This document shows positions 2,768 to 10,757 of a stretch of 24,956 nucleotides of DNA, in pieces. The DNA lies in assembly GCA_031431095.1 (NCBI GenBank), contig JANPCT010000305.1, positions 1 to 24,956 on the forward strand, in the 5' to 3' direction. Source of the DNA: Acidobacteriota bacterium. Its GTDB lineage: Bacteria; Acidobacteriota; Vicinamibacteria; Vicinamibacterales; 2-12-FULL-66-21. How positions within the stretch are numbered: position 1 is the stretch's first letter; every line of letters begins with the position of its first letter. The position numbers and the translations under genes are program-made. The notes beneath the pieces were generated by a model, which saw nothing but the letters and a program-made list of their open reading frames with translations, ran no database searches and was not told the origin of the DNA.

Positions 2768-2954
2768 TACGGATTAGCTGTTCTTCTGGTAGCGTTGCGG
2801 ACAACGATCGGCTGCAAGGGTCGCCTCGATCGGTTGAAGGGTCGCAAACGGCCGGTTGGTTATATCAGCTTTCCAGGCGCGGCCCACCAGGCCCGTCTTC
2901 AACGTCCCCACTGGCGTTCGCCAGAGTCGTCGACGGACTGCAGATGAGGAGATC

Positions 2955-4031
2955 ATGAAAGCGATCGTCGTGAAGCCGGGCGAGAGAGACACGATCCACA
3001 TGCGCGACATGCCGGATCCCGGAATGGCGCCGGACCAGGTGGCGGTGAAGGTGCTCCGCGTCGGGCTGTGCGGGACCGATGCCGAGATCAACCACGGCGT
3101 CTACGGCCAGCCGCCCGACGGCGACGAGTTTCTCATTCTCGGCCATGAGAACCTCGGCATCGTCGAGGACGTCGGCAAGAAGGTCAGCGGCTGGAAGGCC
3201 GGCGATCTCGTCGTCGCGACCGTGCGGCGGCCGTGCGGTAGCTGTCCGCAATGCCAGGCCGGCGAGAACGACATGTGCAGCAGCGGCCAGTACTCCGAGC
3301 GGGGCATTCTGCGCCGCCACGGATTCATGGCGCAGTATTACGTCGAGCAGCCGCTCTTCCTGCACAAGATTCCCAGAGGCATCCGCGAGTTCGCCGTGCT
3401 GCTCGAACCGATGTCGGTGGTGCAGAAGGCGATCGATCACAGCTATCTGCTGCAGCGGCGGCTCAAGACGTGGAAGCCCCGGTTCGCGATGGTGCTCGGG
3501 GCGGGGCCGATCGGGCTGCTCGCCGCGGCGGTGTTGCGCGCGCGGGGACTGCGCGTTGCCGTCGTCGGCCGCGAACGTTCGACCGACGTCCGTGTCGCGG
3601 TCGTCAACCAACTCGGCGCCGAGTACGTCTGCGTCGCCGACAAGGCGCTCGTTGACGTCCCCGCGGAAACCGGCTACCCCGACCTCGTCATCGAAGCCAC
3701 CGGCGCGGCGAAGGTGGTTTTCGACGCGATGGAGATTCTCGGCAGGAACGCCGTCCTCTGCCTCTTGTCGGTCACGCCCGGCGACACCGTCAACGCGGAG
3801 CCGATCGATCGCATCAACCAGAAGATCGTGCTCGGTAACCAGGTGGTGTTCGGCAGCGTCAATGCCAGCCCCCGGCATTTCAAGCAGGGAGTGAAGGACT
3901 TCGTCTTCATCGAGAAGACGTGGCCCGGCGCCATGAACAAGCTGCTCACCGACAAGATCCCGTGGGCCGACCATAAGAAATGGTTCGGCGATCGAACTGC
4001 AGGCATCAAGTCGACGCTCGAAATCGCGTAG
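2955..4031 (+). CDS. Zn-dependent MDR-family dehydrogenase, glucose 1-dehydrogenase-like
   Basis: ATG at 2955 with SD GAGGAG at 2946-2951. Catalytic Zn motifs CGTD and GHE, structural Zn cluster RRPCGSCPQC...DMC, Rossmann GAGPIG, and VFGSVNA typical of the archaeal-type glucose dehydrogenase subfamily. Confidence 0.85.
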   Translation: MKAIVVKPGERDTIHMRDMPDPGMAPDQVAVKVLRVGLCGTDAEINHGVYGQPPDGDEFLILGHENLGIVEDVGKKVSGWKAGDLVVATVRRPCGSCPQCQAGENDMCSSGQYSERGILRRHGFMAQYYVEQPLFLHKIPRGIREFAVLLEPMSVVQKAIDHSYLLQRRLKTWKPRFAMVLGAGPIGLLAAAVLRARGLRVAVVGRERSTDVRVAVVNQLGAEYVCVADKALVDVPAETGYPDLVIEATGAAKVVFDAMEILGRNAVLCLLSVTPGDTVNAEPIDRINQKIVLGNQVVFGSVNASPRHFKQGVKDFVFIEKTWPGAMNKLLTDKIPWADHKKWFGDRTAGIKSTLEIA

Positions 4032-4185
4032 ACGCTCGAAAGTGAAATGTGCCACGCGGCTGATGCCCCGGTTGTGTCCCGGCAGCGAACTTGCGCGCTC
4101 AAGACGGAACACTCAACTCTATCACCAGCCATATCAGCACTTTAACAAGCGAAGTTCAGCCCAAATCGCGTCCAAAAGGTTCATA

Positions 4186-4196
4186 ACGGAACACAG
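4186..4196 (+). promoter_or_regulatory. Candidate upstream activator (enhancer) site ACGGAACACAG
   Basis: An identical 11-mer lies at 8331-8341. In both places its GG is 105 bp upstream of the sigma54 -24 GG. A further ACGGAACAC lies at 4104-4112. Confidence 0.5.
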
Positions 4197-4290
4197 GCCA
4201 TGGTGTTGCGGCCTTGGCTCGCTCGACCGTCTGTCGCGCTAACCATCAAGATCGCAGATGGTTACGGTGTGTGCCTGTTCCCCAGCCCGA

Positions 4291-4307
4291 GTGGTCTGCA
4301 GATTGCT
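4291..4307 (+). promoter_or_regulatory. Sigma54 (-24/-12) promoter upstream of the S8 peptidase
   Basis: GTGGTCTGCAGATTGCT has GG at 4293-4294, a 10-nt spacer and GC at 4305-4306, with TTGCT. It lies about 35 bp upstream of ATG 4342. Confidence 0.6.
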
Positions 4308-4341
4308 CTGCCGAGATCGCTTGTTCCTGGACGGTACACAA

Positions 4342-6117
4342 ATGAAGTCTTCGCTCATCGCGCTGCCTGCTGCTCTCGCTGTTTGTCTGGCCTCATGGGT
4401 TGCCACGCCCGCCGGCCAGCCACAGTCGCCAACACTGTCCGACGATCTGGCTCACCACGCGCCGGGGGTGCATACGCACCGCGTCATCGTGCAGTCGTCT
4501 GACGCCGGCCTCCTCGGCGCGGTTCGCCGGGGGGTGCACGGTCTGCTCCGCCGCGAGTTGAACGGGGCGATGGCGATCGAGGTGACGGACGCGCAACTCG
4601 ATGCGCTGCGGCGCAACCCGCTCCTCGCCCACATCTCGGGTGACCTTCCGGTCGTCGGTGACATGGCCCTCACCAACAAGGTGACGGGCGCGACCGCGGT
4701 GTGGCAAGGAACTCCCGGCGGTCTGCTCGGGCTCGGCGGCACACCAGGCTACACCGGCGCCGGCGTCACCGTCGCGGTGCTCGACTCCGGCATCGCAGCG
4801 CACAGCGCGCTCGACTCGCGCGTCATCGCGCGCGTCAACCTGGTGTCGAGCGAGCCGGGCATGACGGGCGATCCCTTTGGACACGGCACACACCTCGCCG
4901 GCATCATCGGTGGCAATCGCACGGCTGCTTCGTCCGTCACGCCTTCGTTCGGCGGCGGCAGCGCGCCATCGGTGCGGCTGGTGGACGTCCGCGTGCTCGG
5001 CGCGTCGGGTTCGGGTCGCACCAGCGACGTCATCGCCGGCATCGACTGGGTCATCGCCAATCGTCAGGCCTACGGCATGCGCGTCATCAACCTGTCGTTG
5101 GGACATCCTGTGGTCGAGCCGTCCGCAACCGATCCTCTCTGCCGCGCGGTGTCGCGCGCCGTTGCGGCGGGCATCACCGTGGTAGTGTCCGCGGGCAATT
5201 ACGGCCTGACCTCGTCCGGCCAGCCCGTGCTCGGCGGCATCACCTCTCCCGGAAATTCACCTGATGCACTGACGGTCGGCGCGATCGACACGAAGGGCAC
5301 GCTGGATACCGGGGACGATGTGGTGGCGCCGTTCAGCTCGCGTGGACCGGCTCGATACGAGATCGTGGTGAAGCCGGACGTCGTGGCTCCGGGAACGCGC
5401 GTCGTCTCTCTCGAGGCGCAGCGCTCGATCATCAGCGATTCCTATCCGCAGTGGCACATCGCGGGAAGTGGAAAGAACTCGTACCTGCGCCTGAGCGGCT
5501 CGAGCATGTCGACCGCCGTCGTCAGCGGCGGCATTGCGCTGCTTCTGAACGGCCAGCCGCAACTGACGCCGGCGCAGGTGAAGATGGCGCTGCAGATGGG
5601 CGCCCGCTTCATGCCGGACGCCGGGCTCGTCGGTGGGGGCACCGGCGCGGTGGACTTCTCGCGGGCGCAGAAGATTGCGGAGGCCGGTCTGCTCGGCTCC
5701 GGCCTGACCAGTGTCAGCACCTTGCTTGGCGGGGCCTCCGGAGCGGCGTTCCGGGACGCCGGCACGCTGATCGATCGCGTCTACGATCGCAGCGGCATCC
5801 GGCTGCTGGGGATCCTCGATCTCTCCCTGGTGTTCCGTAACGCCGATAGCGCGGAGCCCGGCGTGCTCCATCTGCTCGGCACGTCGAACCCGCTCGGATA
5901 TGCGGCGCCGAATTACGTCGTCTGGGGAAACGTCGCGGGCTGGTCCAGCAGCTACTACGTTGTCTGGGGTAACTCGATCCAGGCGCCGTCCGGACAGTAC
6001 GTGGTCTGGGGCAACAACAACGTTTCGGATCCCAACTACGTGGTCTGGGGCAACGCCGATACGGCTGACGGCAGCTACGTGGTGTGGGGCAACAGCCTCC
6101 CCGGCGGCGGCCACTGA
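4342..6117 (+). CDS. Secreted S8 (subtilase) serine peptidase with five C-terminal YVVWGN repeats
   Basis: Signal peptide MKSSLIALPAALAVCLASWVATPAG and a propeptide. Triad VAVLDSG / GHGTHLAG / SGSSMS, oxyanion-hole VSAGN. The C-terminal repeats are encoded at 5914-6093. Confidence 0.9.
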   Translation: MKSSLIALPAALAVCLASWVATPAGQPQSPTLSDDLAHHAPGVHTHRVIVQSSDAGLLGAVRRGVHGLLRRELNGAMAIEVTDAQLDALRRNPLLAHISGDLPVVGDMALTNKVTGATAVWQGTPGGLLGLGGTPGYTGAGVTVAVLDSGIAAHSALDSRVIARVNLVSSEPGMTGDPFGHGTHLAGIIGGNRTAASSVTPSFGGGSAPSVRLVDVRVLGASGSGRTSDVIAGIDWVIANRQAYGMRVINLSLGHPVVEPSATDPLCRAVSRAVAAGITVVVSAGNYGLTSSGQPVLGGITSPGNSPDALTVGAIDTKGTLDTGDDVVAPFSSRGPARYEIVVKPDVVAPGTRVVSLEAQRSIISDSYPQWHIAGSGKNSYLRLSGSSMSTAVVSGGIALLLNGQPQLTPAQVKMALQMGARFMPDAGLVGGGTGAVDFSRAQKIAEAGLLGSGLTSVSTLLGGASGAAFRDAGTLIDRVYDRSGIRLLGILDLSLVFRNADSAEPGVLHLLGTSNPLGYAAPNYVVWGNVAGWSSSYYVVWGNSIQAPSGQYVVWGNNNVSDPNYVVWGNADTADGSYVVWGNSLPGGGH

Positions 6118-6128
6118 ACGAAGGGACC

Positions 6129-8081
6129 GTGAGCGAGCGCCCGAACACATCGCCAGGCCTGCCGTTCGCGGCAAGGCTCCTGGTCACGACGGTCTGCGTG
6201 TGCGGTGGCGCTGCCGCCGCGCAGAGCGTCGCCGTCCTGTTGCGCGGGACGGTGGCGCCGGAATGGGTGCTGTTTGCGGTGCTGACGGTGCTGAGCGGAA
6301 TGCTCAGCATCAAGATCCCCTCGATCCAATCGCGATTCTCCCTTGCCGAAGTATTCGGGCTGGCGTCCGTCCTCCTCTTCGGACCGGCGGTCGGCGCCGT
6401 CACGCTGGCGCTCGACGGCCTGCGCATCTCCATTTCATGGAAGATGACGAGGCAGCAGACCGCGTTCAACATTACCAACCTGGCGCTGTCGATCTGGTTG
6501 TCAGGACAGTTGTTCTTCCTCGTCAGCGGAACCGGGCCTCTCTATCGCCACGACCCGCCGGGTGCGAGCATCGTGTTGTCGCTCGCGGTGCTGGCCACCG
6601 CGTACTTCGGCGTGAACAGCGGTCTGACGGCCGCGGTGATCGCGCTGTCGGGGCGCAAATCGCCGCGCGCCGTGTGGCTCGAGCACTACTGGCCCTTGTT
6701 TCCAAGTTATCTCGCCGGAGCGTCGGTGGCACTCCTCCTGGTGCTCGCGTTCAGAGAGGTCCGCTTCACTGCCATCGCGCTGATTCTTCCGCTGATCCTG
6801 ATCTGCTACCTGACGCTGCGCTCGTCGTTCGGGCGGTTGGAAGATTCGAAGACGCACGTCGATCAGCTCAATCGGCTGCTGCTGTCAACCGTGGAGACGC
6901 TGGCCACGGCGATCGACGCCAAGGACGAAGTCACGCACGATCATGTGCGCCGCGTGCAGCAGGGCACGCTCGGCCTCGCGCGCGAGCTTGGCGTCAGCGA
7001 TCCCGATACGCTGAAGGGGCTCGAAGCCGCGGCGTTGCTGCACGACACCGGGAAGATCGCCGTACCGGAACACATCCTCAACAAGCCCGGACGTCTCACG
7101 CCGGCGGAATTCGAGACGATGAAGCGCCACGCGCCGGCCGGGGCCGATATCCTCTCGTCAATCGAGTTTCCCTATCCGGTTGTGCCGATCGTGCGCCATC
7201 ATCACGAGAACTGGGACGGCAGCGGCTATCCGGACGGACTGTCCGGCGTCGCGATTCCGCTCGGGGCGCGCATCCTGTCCGTGGTGGACTGCTACGACGC
7301 ACTCACGTCCGATCGCCCCTACCGCAAGCGCATGAGCGAGCCTGATGCGCTCAAGATCATCGTCGACCGCCGCGGCACGATGTACGATCCCATGGTCGTC
7401 GATGCGTTTCTGGGCTGCTACGGGCGCATCATGCCCGAGCCGGTGGCGACGCGCCATCCTGCGGCACAGGCGGTTGGCGCAGTCATGTCGCTCGATCGCG
7501 AAGAACACCGGGGACAGGCGATGCCGGCGCTCGACGGCAGCATGACCGACGGCTTGCTGGCAGTGACCAGTCTGTCGCGGGCGGTCTCCGGCGGCGCACG
7601 CATCGCCGATGTCGGCGCGCTGATGTGGATGGTCGTTCGGCAGGTGCTGCCGTGTGACGCCATGGCCATCTTCCTGCCCGACGAGCGGTTCGATCACGTG
7701 ACCGTCCGGTACGCGGCCGGCGCGCACGCAGTCGCCCTGCGCACGCTGACGCGCGCGTCGGGCACCGGCATCGCGGGTTGGGTCGCCGTCAACCGCCAGG
7801 CGGCGCTCAATGCGGATCCGGCACTCGACTTCGGCCTGACCTCGGCGGCGCCGCCGCTGCGGTCGTGTCTGGCCAGCCCTCTGATCGAAGGGGACTCGCT
7901 CGTGGCCGTGCTCGCCCTCTACCGTGACGGCCCGGGCGCCTTCTCCGAAGACGACGTCCGCCTCGTGGAGCTCCTCGCGCCGCGGCTCGCCTCGTCACTG
8001 GTTGACGCCGCCGGGGCCGAGCGGAGCGCAACCAGCACGCCAGCTTTGAAGCTGGTAAGAAGCCACTCGCAGGGTGCCTGA
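6129..8081 (+). CDS. Membrane-bound HD-GYP cyclic-dinucleotide phosphodiesterase with N-terminal multi-TM sensor and C-terminal GAF domain
   Basis: GTG at 6129 is 11 bp after the peptidase stop. There are roughly 6-7 hydrophobic segments. The HD-GYP motifs are intact: AIDAKD..T..H..RV, LLHDTGK, RHHHENWDGSGYPDGL, VVDCYDALTSDRPYR. The GAF signature is GIAGWVA...LNAD...PL...VLALY...F.EDD. Confidence 0.9.
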   Translation: MSERPNTSPGLPFAARLLVTTVCVCGGAAAAQSVAVLLRGTVAPEWVLFAVLTVLSGMLSIKIPSIQSRFSLAEVFGLASVLLFGPAVGAVTLALDGLRISISWKMTRQQTAFNITNLALSIWLSGQLFFLVSGTGPLYRHDPPGASIVLSLAVLATAYFGVNSGLTAAVIALSGRKSPRAVWLEHYWPLFPSYLAGASVALLLVLAFREVRFTAIALILPLILICYLTLRSSFGRLEDSKTHVDQLNRLLLSTVETLATAIDAKDEVTHDHVRRVQQGTLGLARELGVSDPDTLKGLEAAALLHDTGKIAVPEHILNKPGRLTPAEFETMKRHAPAGADILSSIEFPYPVVPIVRHHHENWDGSGYPDGLSGVAIPLGARILSVVDCYDALTSDRPYRKRMSEPDALKIIVDRRGTMYDPMVVDAFLGCYGRIMPEPVATRHPAAQAVGAVMSLDREEHRGQAMPALDGSMTDGLLAVTSLSRAVSGGARIADVGALMWMVVRQVLPCDAMAIFLPDERFDHVTVRYAAGAHAVALRTLTRASGTGIAGWVAVNRQAALNADPALDFGLTSAAPPLRSCLASPLIEGDSLVAVLALYRDGPGAFSEDDVRLVELLAPRLASSLVDAAGAERSATSTPALKLVRSHSQGA

Positions 8082-8174
8082 AAAATTGGCGCTCTCGGAC
8101 CTTCCGCCTGAAGGCGGAAAACTCAGGAACTCCAACTCAGGGCTCTGTAGTTTCCGCCTTTAGGCGGAATTCAC
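8067..8174. repeat. REP-like element copy 1: inverted pair of TTCCGCCT-NN-AGGCGGAA palindromes with left flank
   Basis: Palindromes at 8102-8119 and 8152-8169, the latter preceded by GTAG at 8147-8150. It is near-identical to the elements at 14346-14549 and 24858-24926. Confidence 0.85.
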
Positions 8175-8330
8175 CTCTCGTCCGGCCGCATCAAGGCAAC
8201 TGTCTCCGGTCCCCGCAAAGCGGGTCAAAATAGCGTTTCAAGTTCCAAAATAAGACAACTACAGCTAAGTTTAATGGCTGTAACGTTTAGGTCCATAAAA
8301 AGCTATCGTTTAGTGTTCATTTGTACCTTT

Positions 8331-8341
8331 ACGGAACACAG
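8331..8341 (+). promoter_or_regulatory. Candidate upstream activator site ACGGAACACAG, part of GTGTTC-N15-GAACAC dyad (8313-8339)
   Basis: Identical to 4186-4196, with the same 105-bp spacing to a sigma54 -24 element. A perfect 6-bp inverted partner GTGTTC lies at 8313-8318. Confidence 0.5.
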
Positions 8342-8435
8342 AGTCCGTCCGAGCTGACAAGCCTTGACCAACGCTTGTCGCTCATAAGTCCATATCAGAC
8401 AACATTTTGCAAACGCGTTTCATATATGGAACGGG

Positions 8436-8452
8436 CTGGCTCGTCAATTGCT
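8436..8452 (+). promoter_or_regulatory. Sigma54 (-24/-12) promoter upstream of first stand-alone GAF gene
   Basis: CTGGCTCGTCAATTGCT has GG at 8438-8439, a 10-nt spacer and GC at 8450-8451. It is close to the consensus YTGGCACG-N3-TTGCW. Confidence 0.7.
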
Positions 8453-8557
8453 CTGTTACAGGGAATGAACGAGTGCCCGAGCATTCCTGAGCCGGCCGCG
8501 TCGCGCTGTCACGAGGGGCCGACCACCTTCGAAACCGCAGCCCCCACGGAGGGGCGC

Positions 8558-9121
8558 ATGCCGGGCGCCGAACGGACCGGCGACGCGTTGCTGGCAATCG
8601 CCAGCCTGGCGCGCGCATTGGACGGTAATGCCAGGCTCGCCGACGTCGGGGCGCTGGTGTGGATGCTGTTGCGTCAACTCGTTCCGGCTGACGCCATCGC
8701 CCTCTTTCTCCCCGATGAGCACAACGATCACGTCGTCGTCCGTTACGCCGGCGGCCTGCATGCCGATGGATTGAGCGGTGTGGCGCGTCCGATCGCGATG
8801 GGAATTGCCGGCTGCGTGGCGGTGAACCGGCGGGCCGTTCTCAACGCCGACCCAAGCGTGGACCTTGGCTTGCGGGGTGCCGCGGCGCCCGCATTGCGTG
8901 CCTGCCTGGTGACGCCGCTCGTCGACAGCGATGCGCTCGTCGCGGTGCTGGCGCTGTACTCGAAAACGGTAAATGGATTCACGGACGATCATCTGCGGCT
9001 CCTCGAAGTGCTCGCCCCGCGGCTGGCGTCGGCTCTTGTCGATGCCGCCATCGCGGACGAAGACAGCCTGGCAGCGGTCGGCGACGTGCCGCGCGCGCTG
9101 AGACTCGTGCACACCAACTAG
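8558..9121 (+). CDS. Stand-alone GAF domain protein (paralogue of the HD-GYP C-terminal GAF)
   Basis: ATG 8558 has SD GGAGGGG at 8548-8554; ATG 8465 is an alternative start. It aligns without large gaps to the GAF of 6129-8081 (ADVGAL.W, D..A.FLPDE..DHV.VRYA.G, GIAG.VAVNR, VAVLALY, LAPRLAS.LVDAA). Confidence 0.85.
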   Translation: MPGAERTGDALLAIASLARALDGNARLADVGALVWMLLRQLVPADAIALFLPDEHNDHVVVRYAGGLHADGLSGVARPIAMGIAGCVAVNRRAVLNADPSVDLGLRGAAAPALRACLVTPLVDSDALVAVLALYSKTVNGFTDDHLRLLEVLAPRLASALVDAAIADEDSLAAVGDVPRALRLVHTN

Positions 9122-9212: not shown

Positions 9213-9275
9213 TCGGGCCGGAGGACGGACCACGCGGCGATCGTAACTGTGGAACACGGAGACTGACCGGTGAAA

Positions 9276-9827
9276 ATGACGAATTCCGCGGCGCTGGACG
9301 ACGGCATCATGGCGATCGGCGGGTTGTCGCGCGCGCTGGGCGGCCAGGCGGTGCTGGCCGACGTCGGATCGCTGTTGTGGGTGCTGATCCGCCAGGTGGT
9401 GCGGTGCGACACGATGGCGATGTTCACGGCCGATGAGTCCCGCGATCAGGTTGTCATCCGCTACGCCGCCGGCGTGCATGCGAACGTGCTCGACGGCATC
9501 GCGCGTCCGCGCTCCACAGGCATCGCGGGCTGGGTCGCCAGCAACCGGCTGCCCGTCCTGAACGCGGAACCAATCATCGACCTCGGCTTCCGCGCCTCCG
9601 TCGCTCCGGCATTGCGGTCGTCGCTGGTGGTGCCGCTCGTCGAGGAGTGTGCGCTCGTCGCCATCCTCGCGCTCTACTCCACTGAACTGCTCGCCTTCAC
9701 GGACGATCACGTCGAGATGCTCGGTGTGCTCGGTCCGCGGCTGGCGCGAACACTCGGCGACGCGGTCGTCGATCGCCCGCACCGCATCGCGGAGACCCCC
9801 GTGCTGCGCCTGGTCGGGGGGAGTTAG
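9276..9827 (+). CDS. Second stand-alone GAF domain protein (same paralogous family)
   Basis: ATG 9276 (or GTG 9270) with GGAGA at 9258-9262. Same GAF signature: ADVGSLLW, RYAAG.HA, GIAGWVASNR, LVAILALY, FTDDH. Confidence 0.85.
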   Translation: MTNSAALDDGIMAIGGLSRALGGQAVLADVGSLLWVLIRQVVRCDTMAMFTADESRDQVVIRYAAGVHANVLDGIARPRSTGIAGWVASNRLPVLNAEPIIDLGFRASVAPALRSSLVVPLVEECALVAILALYSTELLAFTDDHVEMLGVLGPRLARTLGDAVVDRPHRIAETPVLRLVGGS

Positions 9828-9941: not shown

Positions 9942-10757
9942 TTGCTGATTCGATTACGCGGCGTCAGGGGATCGGTGCCGTGGTCCGTGCCGGACGGAAT
10001 CATTCACGGCTGCAACACCCCCTGCATCGAGGTGTTCGACGAGCGCACGGGCGGCCTGCTCATTCTCGATGCCGGTTCCGGCATTGCCGGCGTCAACCCC
10101 GCGGAGCTGGCCGGGTCCCCGTCCGCGCGTGCTGTGTCACTCGTCCTCACCCACTACCACTGGGATCACCTGCTCGGCCTGCCGTTCTTCACGACGTTGT
10201 ACGAGCCCGGATGGGACCTGACCATCCACACCCCGCGGCTCGAGTCGCACGATCCCACGTGGCTGGCGACGATCTTCAAATCATCGTTCTTCCCGGTGCC
10301 GTACCAGCACCTGCCGAACCGCCCGACGGTGCGGATGGTCGAGGCGGGCCCGGTTAACGTCCCCGGCTTCGAGATGACCGCGCTCGGGCTCAATCATCCC
10401 GGCGGTGCGATGGCGTACCGGATCAAGGGCGTCACCGGTGATTTCGTCTACGCTACCGACCACGAGTTTGGCGATCCGGCTTATGACGAGCCGCTCGCCT
10501 ACTTCGTCCGCGGCGCCGCCGCCATCGTCCTGGATGCGCACTTCACTCCTGCCGAGCGGGTGCACCACCGCGGTTGGGGGCACAGCGACTGGCGGCAGTG
10601 CGCCGAGTTTGCGGCTGCCAACGCAATTGGCCGGCTCTACCTCTTCCATCACAAGCCGGGGCGATCCGACATCGCCCTCGACCACATTCGCGATGAGGCG
10701 CGGATGGTGTTCAACGCCACCGACACCGCGAAGGAAGAGGCAACGATCGTCATCTGA
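9942..10757 (+). CDS. Metallo-beta-lactamase-fold hydrolase (RNase Z/PhnP-like, putative phosphodiesterase)
   Basis: N-terminal GVRGSVP, NTPC and ILDAGSG, HxHxDH motif THYHWDH, NHPGG, YATDHE and WGHS. TTG start. Confidence 0.85.
   Translation: MLIRLRGVRGSVPWSVPDGIIHGCNTPCIEVFDERTGGLLILDAGSGIAGVNPAELAGSPSARAVSLVLTHYHWDHLLGLPFFTTLYEPGWDLTIHTPRLESHDPTWLATIFKSSFFPVPYQHLPNRPTVRMVEAGPVNVPGFEMTALGLNHPGGAMAYRIKGVTGDFVYATDHEFGDPAYDEPLAYFVRGAAAIVLDAHFTPAERVHHRGWGHSDWRQCAEFAAANAIGRLYLFHHKPGRSDIALDHIRDEARMVFNATDTAKEEATIVI

What the first reader, a model, noticed from the sequence alone, without database searches (positions are those of the whole stretch)
4186..8452. Twin sigma54 promoters share an identical 11-mer exactly 105 bp upstream of the -24 GG
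Seen: GG-N10-GC elements with TTGCT at 4293-4307 (before the subtilase) and 8438-8452 (before the first free GAF), both continuing TTGCTCTG. ACGGAACACAG lies at 4186-4196 and 8331-8341, and the GG-to-GG distance is 105 bp in both cases (4188 to 4293; 8333 to 8438), about 10 helical turns. At the second site it forms the dyad GTGTTC-N15-GAACAC; the first has the partial GCGTCC-N15-GAACAC. An exact IHF consensus WATCARN4TTR (TATCAGCACTTTA) lies at 4132-4144. Both regions are visibly AT-richer than the genes. Established: sigma54 needs an enhancer-bound bEBP, typically 80-150 bp upstream. Inference: one unidentified bEBP co-activates both transcription units, independent evidence that they form one regulon.
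Basis: partly seen in the sequence, partly recalled or inferred. Interest (0 to 1): 0.72.

Follow-up and report, generated by a model that had tools for sequence, protein, structure and literature searches.

The report
Shared sigma-54 enhancer sites, two operons
Two neighbouring operons of an uncultured soil/sediment Acidobacterium (a secreted protease with a c-di-GMP phosphodiesterase, and small GAF sensor proteins) carry sigma-54 promoters with the same conserved activator-binding site 105 bp upstream, and comparison with relatives points to one conserved, uncharacterised activator protein as their common switch.

Summary
ACGGAACACAG lies at 4186-4196 and 8331-8341, each exactly 105 bp before the -24 GG of a GG-N10-GC/TTGCT element (4293, 8438).

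On its own the 11-mer is only suggestive. Comparative data make the case.

In 23 related promoters from Vicinamibacterales genomes, such dyads sit at about -207, -187 and -105 from a conserved GG-N8-TTGC promoter. IHF-like cores lie at fixed offsets between them.

- **Same motif elsewhere:** a third subtilase promoter of this genome (contig C942) has it. So does a paralogous cassette (bEBP, dyad, sigma-54 promoter, subtilase, HD-GYP/GAF/GGDEF) found in 15 of 16 genomes examined.
- **Candidate activator:** that bEBP is single-copy and 72-94% identical across all 36 family genomes searched. It has an ArsR-like winged-helix N-terminus, an AAA+ core and a Fis-type HTH.
- **Regulon:** in congeners, further perfect dyads precede PAS-GGDEF-EAL and PilZ genes, which suggests a c-di-GMP regulon.

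No transcript or binding data exist. This is a new member of a known kind: solid and moderately interesting.

The parts
4075..4091 (+). Weak distal dyad (TGTCCCGGCAGCGAACT), about -207 from the -24 GG
   Evidence: It has 2 mismatches to TGTNCC-N5-GGNACA. The position matches the -205 to -212 site of orthologous promoters.
4095..4111 (+). Distal site at -187: perfect right half ACGGAACA (4104-4111), degenerate left half
   Evidence: Sequence. GGAACA lies at -187 from the GG, the same position as the -185 to -190 site in orthologs.
4132..4144 (+). IHF-like site TATCAGCACTTTA between the distal and proximal dyads
   Evidence: The core CAR-N4-TTR sits at offset -42 from the proximal dyad in 6 of 21 anchored promoters, and near-matches occur in others.
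4177..4193 (+). Proximal dyad AGGTTCATAACGGAACA of the subtilase promoter.
   Evidence: 10.8 bits on the ortholog-trained matrix, with the GG half 105 bp before GG 4293. Orthologs have a site at 103-108.
4255..4264 (+). Second IHF-like core CAGATGGTTA, between the proximal dyad and the promoter
   Evidence: The core lies at offset +76 to +78 in 7 of 21 anchored promoters.
4292..4307 (+). Sigma-54 promoter TGGTCTGCAGATTGCT; predicted TSS about 4318
   Evidence: It shows the GG-N10-GC spacing. GG-N8-TTGC is conserved in all 16 orthologous subtilase upstream regions. No sigma-70-like site lies in the intergenic region.
4322..4338 (+). Perfect dyad TGTTCCTGGACGGTACA downstream of the promoter, ending 4 nt before the subtilase ATG
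   Evidence: 18.7 bits. The same position (GG +40/41) is occupied in congeners at 18.4 and 14.3 bits. Its role is unresolved.
4342..6117 (+). Secreted S8 subtilase gene (first gene of unit 1)
   Evidence: Pfam Peptidase_S8, E 2.4e-48. The start is ATG 4342 and a signal-peptide-like N-terminus follows.
6084..8081 (+). HD-GYP + GAF protein (second gene of unit 1; overlaps the subtilase stop)
   Evidence: Pfam HD_5 E 2.2e-41 and GAF_2 E 6.3e-13.
8322..8338 (+). Proximal dyad TGTACCTTTACGGAACA of the GAF promoter. It holds most of the 11-mer (8331-8341).
   Evidence: Exact match to TGTNCC-N5-GGNACA, 21.8 bits, with the GG half 105 bp before GG 8438.
8400..8409 (+). IHF-like core CAACATTTTG between the dyad and the promoter
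   Evidence: It sits at offset +78 from the dyad start, the conserved position.
8437..8452 (+). Sigma-54 promoter TGGCTCGTCAATTGCT; predicted TSS about 8463
   Evidence: It matches 11 of 12 consensus positions. Orthologous GAF promoters in two congeners have the same layout.
8558..9121 (+). Free GAF protein 1 (start ATG 8558 after GGAGG; 5' UTR of about 95 nt)
   Evidence: Pfam GAF_2, E 3.2e-15.
9270..9827 (+). Free GAF protein 2
   Evidence: Pfam GAF_2, E 5.1e-09.
9942..10757 (+). MBL-fold hydrolase, probably the last gene of unit 2
   Evidence: Pfam Lactamase_B_2, E 9.7e-15. It follows the GAF gene(s) in several orthologous loci.

Best explanation
Both elements are sigma-54 (RpoN) promoters served by the same upstream activating sequence.

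**The site.** The shared 11-mer is the right half of a 17-bp dyad with consensus TGTTCC-GNNAC-GGAACA. Its geometry matches NtrC sites (TGCACC-N5-GGTGCA). It most likely binds a dimer of a bEBP through a C-terminal Fis-type HTH.

**The ancestral layout.** Two adjacent dyads lie at about -207 and -187, and one at about -105, counted from the -24 GG. An IHF-like bend site sits midway between the distal pair and the proximal dyad. A second sits between the proximal dyad and the promoter. Inferred mechanism: three bound dimers are brought together by bending, form the AAA+ hexamer, and contact the sigma-54 closed complex to open it.

**In this window the layout is partly eroded.**
- Subtilase promoter: half-sites at -207 and -187, a mediocre site at -105, and a perfect dyad at +40 from the GG.
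- GAF promoter: one strong site at -105.

**The likely activator (about 0.6).** It is the single-copy bEBP encoded on contig C213, directly upstream of a paralogous dyad, sigma-54 promoter, subtilase and HD-GYP/GAF/GGDEF cassette. Its domains are an ArsR/SmtB-like winged helix, an AAA+ core and HTH_8. The window's locus would be a duplicated cassette that kept the enhancer but not the regulator gene.

**The regulon.** It appears to be subtilase and c-di-GMP-turnover genes.

**Shown here:** the sequences, their conservation and spacing, motif clustering, and the gene neighbourhoods.
**Inferred:** binding, hexamer assembly, IHF use, RpoN dependence, and the identity of the bEBP.
For: 1. **Sigma-54 machinery.** The genome has rpoN and about 27 bEBP genes.
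2. **Spacing specificity.** TGTNCC-N5-GGNACA occurs 7 times in the genome, against 0-3 at any other spacer length from 1 to 11. Two of the seven are in this window, and further copies are C734/C992 with a sigma-54-like element about 100 bp downstream. C942 holds near-matches (15.5 and 17.5 bits, one mismatch each) 105 and 187 bp before its promoter.
3. **Conserved layout.** In 23 promoters from about 18 genomes, dyads lie at 205-212, 185-190 and 103-108 bp from a conserved GG-N8-TTGC.
4. **Clustering.** In 80 independent loci (599 kb), 22 of 35 matrix hits of 13 bits or more lie within 500 bp upstream of the subtilase gene, and 7 lie just after the HD-GYP gene. The genome background for 13 bits or more is 1 per 127 kb.
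5. **Independent validation.** The matrix was trained only on orthologs of the window locus. In 16 paralogous cassettes (144 kb) it finds hits of 11 bits or more only in the bEBP-subtilase intergenic region. These lie mostly 106-117 bp before a (C/G)GGCAG-N5-TTGCA promoter.
6. **The candidate bEBP.**
   - It is single-copy with no close paralog (next best 47-48% identity, AAA+ core only).
   - It is present in 36 of 36 family genomes.
   - It is the only one of 26 bEBP loci in this genome with a strong adjacent dyad.
7. **Co-occurrence.** The composite pattern ACGGNACA-N96-101-TGG-N8-TTGC gives 15 hits against 3 for the reversed control in 61 genomes. All 15 are in genomes that have this bEBP, and none in the 11 without it.
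8. **IHF.** IHF-like cores sit at fixed offsets. An IHF-beta-like gene just reaches the NCBIfam cut-off, 116.3 against 115 bits.
9. **No competing signal.** There is no sigma-70-like promoter or Rfam element in either intergenic region.
Against: - There is no experimental evidence of any kind. No RNA run holds this DNA, so TSS and RpoN dependence are untested, and no binding data exist.
- The subtilase-promoter site at -105 has a poor left half (10.8 bits), and the distal sites of both window promoters are degenerate.
- The strongest subtilase-associated dyad lies downstream of the promoter (4322-4338), which a pure activator model does not explain.
- Four congeners carry the upstream pair 48 bp closer (138 and 57), out of helical phase with the canonical layout.
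- The bEBP assignment rests on gene neighbourhood and co-occurrence only. The core-cassette sites are a slightly different flavour (often ...ACAGCACA).
- The bEBP also has an N-terminal winged helix that could be the DNA-binding module instead.
- Genome-wide exact-dyad counts exceed the reversed control only about 2-fold.
- Related genomes are not independent samples.
Confidence: 0.75

Rival explanations
1. The dyads are real regulatory sites, but they are bound by some other protein. This could be another of the roughly 27 bEBPs, or a non-bEBP factor such as a repressor or a c-di-GMP-responsive regulator. In that case the neighbouring bEBP gene of the paralogous cassette is only a co-regulated target.
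For: No binding data exist. A perfect dyad lies downstream of the subtilase promoter, a position more typical of an operator. Two other bEBP loci (C782, C855) have sites of about 12.5 bits within 2.5 kb.
Against: - The dyads sit at classic UAS distances, with IHF-like sites in between.
- The motif follows the bEBP gene in 15 of 16 cassettes across several families of the order.
- Composite hits occur only in bEBP-bearing genomes.
- The 17-bp CC-N5-GG geometry is that of NtrC-type Fis-HTH dimers.
Confidence: 0.17
2. The shared 11-mer and the equal spacing are coincidence, or a leftover of a local duplication, with no function.
For: Three unrelated pairs of sigma-54-like sites in the genome share in-register 10-mers, so an 11-mer is not extreme on its own. 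The last three letters (CAG) are not conserved elsewhere.
Against: - Outside the 11-mer and the -12 box there is little shared sequence: 31.6% in-register identity over the whole 320-bp window.
- The same dyad at the same distance recurs in other genera, while the surrounding sequence has diverged.
- The motif clusters more than 100-fold in these regions.
Confidence: 0.03
3. The GG-N10-GC elements are not used as promoters. Transcription would start elsewhere, for example by read-through from the ADH gene or from an unrecognised housekeeping promoter of Acidobacteria, and the dyads would regulate that.
For: No TSS data exist. The subtilase element matches only 9 of 12 consensus positions. Promoter rules for Acidobacteriota sigma-70 are poorly known, so the negative scan is weak evidence.
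Against: GG and TTGC are invariant at a fixed distance from the dyads in all 16 orthologous subtilase regions and in the GAF, C942 and L155 promoters, while flanking bases vary. The genome is rich in bEBPs and has rpoN.
Confidence: 0.05

Closest known systems
NtrC (NR-I) enhancer at glnAp2 of enteric bacteria
   Same: Both use 17-bp dyads with CC-N5-GG at the same positions (TGCACC-N5-GGTGCA against TGTNCC-N5-GGNACA). Both have several sites 100-200 bp upstream of a sigma-54 promoter. In both, adjacent sites about two helical turns apart favour oligomerisation, and the activator has an AAA+ core and a C-terminal Fis-type HTH (Pfam HTH_8). The NtrC details are from general knowledge.
   Different: - The half-site sequence differs at positions 3-4.
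- The candidate activator has no receiver domain. It has an ArsR/SmtB-like winged helix instead.
- It reaches no NCBIfam equivalog cut-off, with ntrC at 300 against 558.6 bits.
- The target genes are proteases and c-di-GMP enzymes, not nitrogen assimilation genes.
- The proximal and distal sites are 82 bp apart with an IHF-like site between them.
PexR of Myxococcus xanthus (PMC12754779)
   Same: PexR is a bEBP that binds three tandem interrupted palindromes (CACCG-n6-CGGTG) upstream of a sigma-54 promoter. It also acts as a repressor at another promoter, so it has a dual role. This is a useful precedent for the three-dyad layout here and for the dyad downstream of the subtilase promoter.
   Different: PexR has a metal-binding GAF sensor domain, a different palindrome and peroxide-stress targets. 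Its repeats are tandem rather than split 2+1 by a bend site.
IHF-assisted sigma-54 promoters (for example nifH, Pu, and orp of Desulfovibrio; PMC8359166 abstract)
   Same: A WATCAR-N4-TTR-like element lies between the UAS and the promoter. The genome encodes an IHF-beta-like protein.
   Different: Here there are two positionally conserved IHF-like cores, and one of them lies inside the enhancer between the distal and proximal dyads. IHF binding is untested, and IHF specificity in Acidobacteriota is unknown.
FleQ-type c-di-GMP-linked bEBP regulons (for example PMC8125075)
   Same: In both, a bEBP is tied to c-di-GMP signalling genes.
   Different: FleQ senses c-di-GMP and controls flagella and exopolysaccharide genes. 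Here the bEBP appears to control the c-di-GMP enzymes themselves (HD-GYP, GGDEF, EAL, PilZ) together with subtilases. No homology beyond the AAA+ core was shown.

Membership tests
Sigma-54 (RpoN) dependent promoter | Conserved GG at -24 and GC at -12, exactly 10 nt apart, matching TGGCAC-N5-TTGCW | tested here: met
   TGGTCT-GCAGA-TTGCT matches 9 of 12 positions and TGGCTC-GTCAA-TTGCT matches 11 of 12. GG-N8-TTGC is conserved in the orthologs.
Sigma-54 (RpoN) dependent promoter | The organism encodes RpoN and bEBPs | tested here: met
   Sigma54_DBD on C496, E 4e-65. About 27 Sigma54_activat genes.
Sigma-54 (RpoN) dependent promoter | Transcription starts about 12 nt after the GC and depends on rpoN | not testable with these tools
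   No RNA-holding sequencing run exists for this DNA. The organism is uncultured.
bEBP upstream activating sequence (enhancer) | Dyad-symmetric site(s) 80-200 bp upstream of the promoter, usually more than one | tested here: met
   17-bp dyads lie at -105 in both window promoters, with further sites or half-sites near -187 and -207 in the window's subtilase promoter and in orthologs. The GAF promoter's distal sites are degenerate.
bEBP upstream activating sequence (enhancer) | Conservation of site and spacing in orthologous promoters above the flanking sequence | tested here: met
   23 promoters compared. 22 of 35 strong hits in 599 kb fall in one 500-bp bin. Background is 1 per 127 kb.
bEBP upstream activating sequence (enhancer) | Bound by a specific bEBP, with activation lost on site mutation or a half-turn insertion | not testable with these tools
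   Only indirect evidence exists. The motif follows one conserved bEBP gene in 15 of 16 cassettes, and there is co-occurrence.
NtrC regulon site | Consensus TGCACC-N5-GGTGCA, bound by a receiver-domain NtrC | tested here: not met
   The geometry is the same, but the half-site is TGTNCC. The candidate bEBP lacks a receiver domain and scores below the ntrC cut-off. It works like an NtrC enhancer but is not a member.
IHF binding site | WATCAR-N4-TTR with an A/T-rich 5' flank, placed so as to bend DNA between the interacting partners | tested here: inconclusive
   There is an exact consensus at 4132-4144. Core matches lie at conserved offsets, -42 (6 of 21) and +76 to +78 (7 of 21). An IHF-beta-like gene is present. 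Binding and the IHF specificity of this phylum are unknown.

The most novel reading that the evidence does not exclude
An order-wide, undescribed sigma-54 regulon of Vicinamibacterales (abundant uncultured soil and sediment Acidobacteriota). It would be run by a new bEBP architecture: an ArsR/SmtB-like winged helix with an invariant cysteine, an AAA+ core and a Fis HTH. This protein would bind a split three-dyad enhancer folded by two IHF bends, and would act as both activator (upstream sites) and brake (the dyad just downstream of the promoter). Its targets would be secreted subtilases together with the cell's c-di-GMP makers, breakers and readers (HD-GYP, GGDEF-EAL, PilZ, free GAF proteins).
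Probability: 0.4. Interest if true: 0.6.

Novelty: new member of a known kind. Interest (0 to 1): 0.5.

Why it matters
Vicinamibacterales are among the commonest soil and sediment bacteria, but almost nothing is known about their gene regulation. I found no paper linking them to sigma-54.

This finding gives:
- a concrete binding motif,
- a promoter architecture,
- a candidate regulator whose family has at least 2856 protein clusters in metagenomes, all generically annotated,
- a small regulon that ties secreted proteases to c-di-GMP signalling.

It also independently supports the view that the subtilase/HD-GYP and free-GAF/MBL genes work together. The whole proposal can be tested in vitro with synthetic DNA and heterologously expressed protein, without culturing the organism.

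It does not change what is known about how sigma-54 enhancers work.

Tried and rejected
- **RNA evidence.** No RNA holder is listed for window 4050-4600. All 10 runs are DNA metagenomes from sediment or soil.
- **Rfam.** No match with E up to 1 in 3900-8700.
- **Sigma-70 and terminator scan.** Nothing in either intergenic region. The hairpin at 8151-8169 lacks a T-run and was not scored.
The left arm of GTGTTC-N15-GAACAC is not conserved in any ortholog. Rejected in favour of TGTNCC-N5-GGNACA.
- **Third genomic copy of the 11-mer (C112).** It is in coding sequence with no sigma-54 element at the right distance.
- **Genome-wide exact-dyad counts against the reversed control in 61 genomes.** Only about 2-fold excess (106 against 48 in the family), and bEBP-less genomes also show 22 against 13. 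Too noisy to use as evidence.
- **Named bEBP families.** The candidate reaches no NCBIfam equivalog cut-off. The best hits, PrdR, NifA and the PEP-CTERM regulator, match through the AAA+ core only.
- **C992 end.** It duplicates the C734 enhancer-promoter, but the downstream reading frame stops after about 25 codons. Probably an assembly branch; not pursued.
- **PAS-GGDEF-EAL ortholog in G000 (C263).** The contig ends before the promoter, so its dyad could not be checked.
- **PilZ ortholog.** Not found in G000 with this query. The assembly is 88.8% complete.
- **Literature.** No paper found on Vicinamibacter with sigma-54, or on this bEBP architecture.
- **Earlier scan notes.** None on this motif.
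Full report
**1. What is in the window**

The window is contig C305 of a fragmented MAG: 4.57 Mb, 1068 contigs, 66.6% G+C, 88.8% complete. Related loci carry the names Acidobacteriota and Vicinamibacterales. The DNA is held by sediment and soil metagenome runs.

Genes around the finding:

| Coordinates | Gene |
|---|---|
| 2856-4031 | Zn-alcohol/glucose dehydrogenase |
| 4342-6117 | secreted S8 subtilase |
| 6084-8081 | HD-GYP + GAF protein, overlapping the subtilase stop |
| about 8151-8169 | hairpin |
| 8558-9121 | free GAF protein 1 |
| 9270-9827 | free GAF protein 2 |
| 9942-10757 | MBL-fold hydrolase |

All are on the + strand. This gives two transcription units, each preceded by an A+T-richer intergenic region.

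**2. Checking the observation**

- The 11-mer ACGGAACACAG lies at 4186-4196 and 8331-8341.
- The sigma-54-type elements are TGGTCTGCAGATTGCT (GG 4293) and TGGCTCGTCAATTGCT (GG 8438).
- Both GG-to-GG distances are 105 bp.

The 11-mer occurs three times in the whole assembly. The third copy is in coding sequence on C112 without a promoter.

Among 93 TGG-N8-TTGCW sites in the genome (4278 pairs), this pair has the longest in-register shared run. However, three unrelated pairs share 10-mers. A shuffle of this pair gives P about 3.5e-5. The coincidence is therefore suggestive rather than conclusive.

Apart from the 11-mer and the TTGCTCTG box, the two regions share little: 31.6% identity in register over the whole 320-bp window. 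They are not a recent duplication.

**3. What the 11-mer is**

The genome has rpoN and about 27 bEBP genes.

Orthologous loci (dehydrogenase, subtilase, HD-GYP/GAF, then free GAF and/or MBL) were fetched from 17 relatives. Their subtilase upstream regions all hold a GG-N8-TTGC element. Upstream of it lie repeated copies of a 17-bp dyad, TGTNCC-N5-GGNACA.

The window's second site is a perfect copy, TGTACC-TTTAC-GGAACA at 8322-8338. The first, AGGTTC-ATAAC-GGAACA at 4177-4193, has a good right half only.

In the window's own genome the exact pattern occurs 7 times with a 5-nt spacer, against 0-3 times for every other spacer from 1 to 11.

A matrix built from 24 ortholog sites, excluding the window, gives the consensus TGT(T/G)CC-(G/A)NN(A/C)(C/T)-GG(A/C)ACA. 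The letters "AC" before GGAACA in the 11-mer belong to the motif. The trailing "CAG" does not.

**4. Architecture**

Distances are measured from the GG half of each dyad to the -24 GG, in 23 promoters.
- **Common layout:** three sites at 205-212, 185-190 and 103-108. It occurs in several genera, in the GAF promoters of two congeners, in a third subtilase promoter of this genome (C942: 206/187/105), and in its ortholog L155 (188/105).
- **Window subtilase promoter:** follows the layout with eroded distal sites (4075-4091 weak; 4095-4111 right half only).
- **Window GAF promoter:** keeps one strong site.
- **Compact variant:** four congeners have 136-140 and 57-58.
- **Downstream site:** a dyad at about GG+40, just before the subtilase start codon, is perfect in the window (4322-4338). 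It is present in congeners at 18.4 and 14.3 bits.

The core CAR-N4-TTR of the IHF consensus occurs at two fixed offsets from the proximal dyad.
- At -42 in 6 of 21 promoters.
- At +76 to +78 in 7 of 21 promoters. In the window these are 4255-4264 and 8400-8409.

One HU/IHF-family gene of the genome just reaches the IHF-beta cut-off.

**5. Is the motif more than chance across genomes?**

- In 80 further loci (599 kb) found with the HD-GYP protein, 35 sites score 13 bits or more. Of these, 22 fall in the 500 bp upstream of the subtilase gene and 7 fall just downstream of the HD-GYP gene.
- The background in the window's genome is one such site per 127 kb.
- The composite pattern ACGGNACA-N96-101-TGG-N8-TTGC gives 15 hits in 61 related genomes, against 3 for the reversed control.

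**6. Which activator?**

Contig C213 of the same genome holds, in order:
- a bEBP gene, cut at its 5' end by the contig edge;
- a dyad, TGTGCC-AAAAC-AGCACA, at 1298;
- a CGGCAGC-CGGC-TTGCA element 115 bp further on;
- a subtilase gene;
- a MASE9/HD-GYP/GAF/GGDEF gene.

This cassette is conserved in 15 of 16 genomes examined. In three of those 15, from other families of the order, the subtilase is missing and the bEBP is followed directly by the HD-GYP gene.

In those 144 kb, the only sites of 11 bits or more lie in the intergenic region after the bEBP gene. They are mostly 106-117 bp before the promoter. The matrix was trained on a different, paralogous locus, so this is an independent hit.

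Properties of the bEBP:
- It is single-copy, with no paralog above 48% identity.
- It was found in all 36 genomes of the family at 72-94% identity, and in 13 of 24 genomes from other families of the order.
- All 15 composite-pattern hits are in genomes that have it.
- Of 26 bEBP loci in this genome, it alone has a strong adjacent dyad.
- Its domains are an N-terminal region of about 120 residues with no Pfam match, an AAA+ sigma-54 interaction domain, a lid and HTH_8.
- The N-terminal region folds with confidence (pLDDT 82.6) into a winged helix. Its closest structural matches are ArsR/SmtB and MarR repressors (Foldseek E about 1e-4, TM 0.5-0.6). It has an invariant cysteine.
- It matches no named bEBP equivalog.
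- At least 2856 protein clusters share this N-terminus, all generically annotated.

**7. Regulon hints**

In three congeners, the remaining perfect dyads precede an orthologous PAS-PAS-GGDEF-EAL gene (three genomes) and a PilZ-domain gene with a sigma-54-like element.

In the window's genome, tandem dyads and a sigma-54-like element precede a gene cut by the contig end (C734).

Together with the HD-GYP, GGDEF and GAF genes, this points to c-di-GMP turnover plus secreted proteases.

**8. Mechanism proposed**

Dimers of the bEBP bind the dyads through the Fis-type HTH. The site geometry, TG..CC-N5-GG..CA, is that of NtrC.

Bends at the two IHF-like sites bring the distal pair, the proximal dimer and the promoter together. 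The AAA+ hexamer then remodels the sigma-54 closed complex.

The dyad just downstream of the subtilase promoter may add a repressive or gating role. A dual role is documented for PexR (PMC12754779).

These steps are inference. What is shown is sequence, conservation, spacing and gene neighbourhood.

**9. Comparison and verdict**

This is a textbook kind of element, a sigma-54 promoter with a UAS and an IHF site. It is new only in its motif, its regulator and its lineage. It works like an NtrC enhancer but fails membership: the half-site differs, there is no receiver domain, and the score is below the cut-off.

I found no literature on sigma-54 regulation in Vicinamibacterales or on this bEBP architecture.

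The corrections are the dyad, the number of sites, the role of the IHF site, and a named candidate regulator.

Interest is moderate. It is a clean, testable regulon in an abundant uncultured group, not a new principle.

Noticed in passing
window 4322-4338: A perfect dyad, TGTTCCTGGACGGTACA, lies downstream of the subtilase sigma-54 promoter, 4 nt before the ATG. The same position is occupied in congeners. It could be an operator (dual activator/repressor) or a promoter-flanking third site. Unexplained.
   Followed up: partly
G000 contig C213 (L053:1-5837): A paralogous cassette: bEBP (ArsR-like winged helix, AAA+, HTH_8), dyad, sigma-54 promoter, S8 subtilase and MASE9/HD-GYP/GAF/GGDEF. It is conserved across the family and, without the subtilase, in other families of the order. 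The N-terminal domain has no Pfam model and carries an invariant Cys.
   Followed up: yes
G000 contig C942 (L050:1-1330, minus strand): A third S8 subtilase gene in this genome has the full enhancer (dyads at 206/187/105, an IHF-like element similar to TATCAGCACTT, promoter TGGCCTTTCGCTTGCTCT). The gene is cut by the contig end.
   Followed up: partly
G000 contigs C734:1456-1650 and C992:8050-8268: The two contig ends share about 200 bp holding tandem dyads 21 bp apart and a sigma-54-like element, but the sequence after the start codon differs. This is an assembly branch, a strain variant or a duplicated promoter. The C734 gene is cut after 86 residues and gives only sub-threshold Pfam hits.
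   Followed up: partly
L151:3025-3041, L152:3030-3046, L153:3053-3069, L154:3045-3061 (congeners G006, G001, G003): Perfect dyads precede an orthologous PAS-PAS-GGDEF-EAL gene in three genomes and a PilZ + DUF6982 gene in one. The likely regulon is therefore centred on c-di-GMP signalling.
   Followed up: partly
L031, L033, L034, L035 subtilase upstream regions: Four congeners have the upstream dyad pair 48 bp closer to the promoter (138/57 instead of 187/105). This is not a whole number of helical turns, so strict phasing is not obligatory.
   Followed up: no
window 8151-8169: An inverted repeat, TTCCGCC-TTTAG-GGCGGAA, lies 70 bp after the HD-GYP/GAF stop. It is a likely terminator without a T-run and separates the two units.
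   Followed up: no
G047, G051, G049, G056, G038: In some other families of the order, a bEBP of this type (55-66% identical; a second copy in G047, G051 and G043) sits directly upstream of the 45%-identity HD-GYP paralog. The bEBP/HD-GYP pairing has therefore been kept or duplicated as a unit.
   Followed up: no
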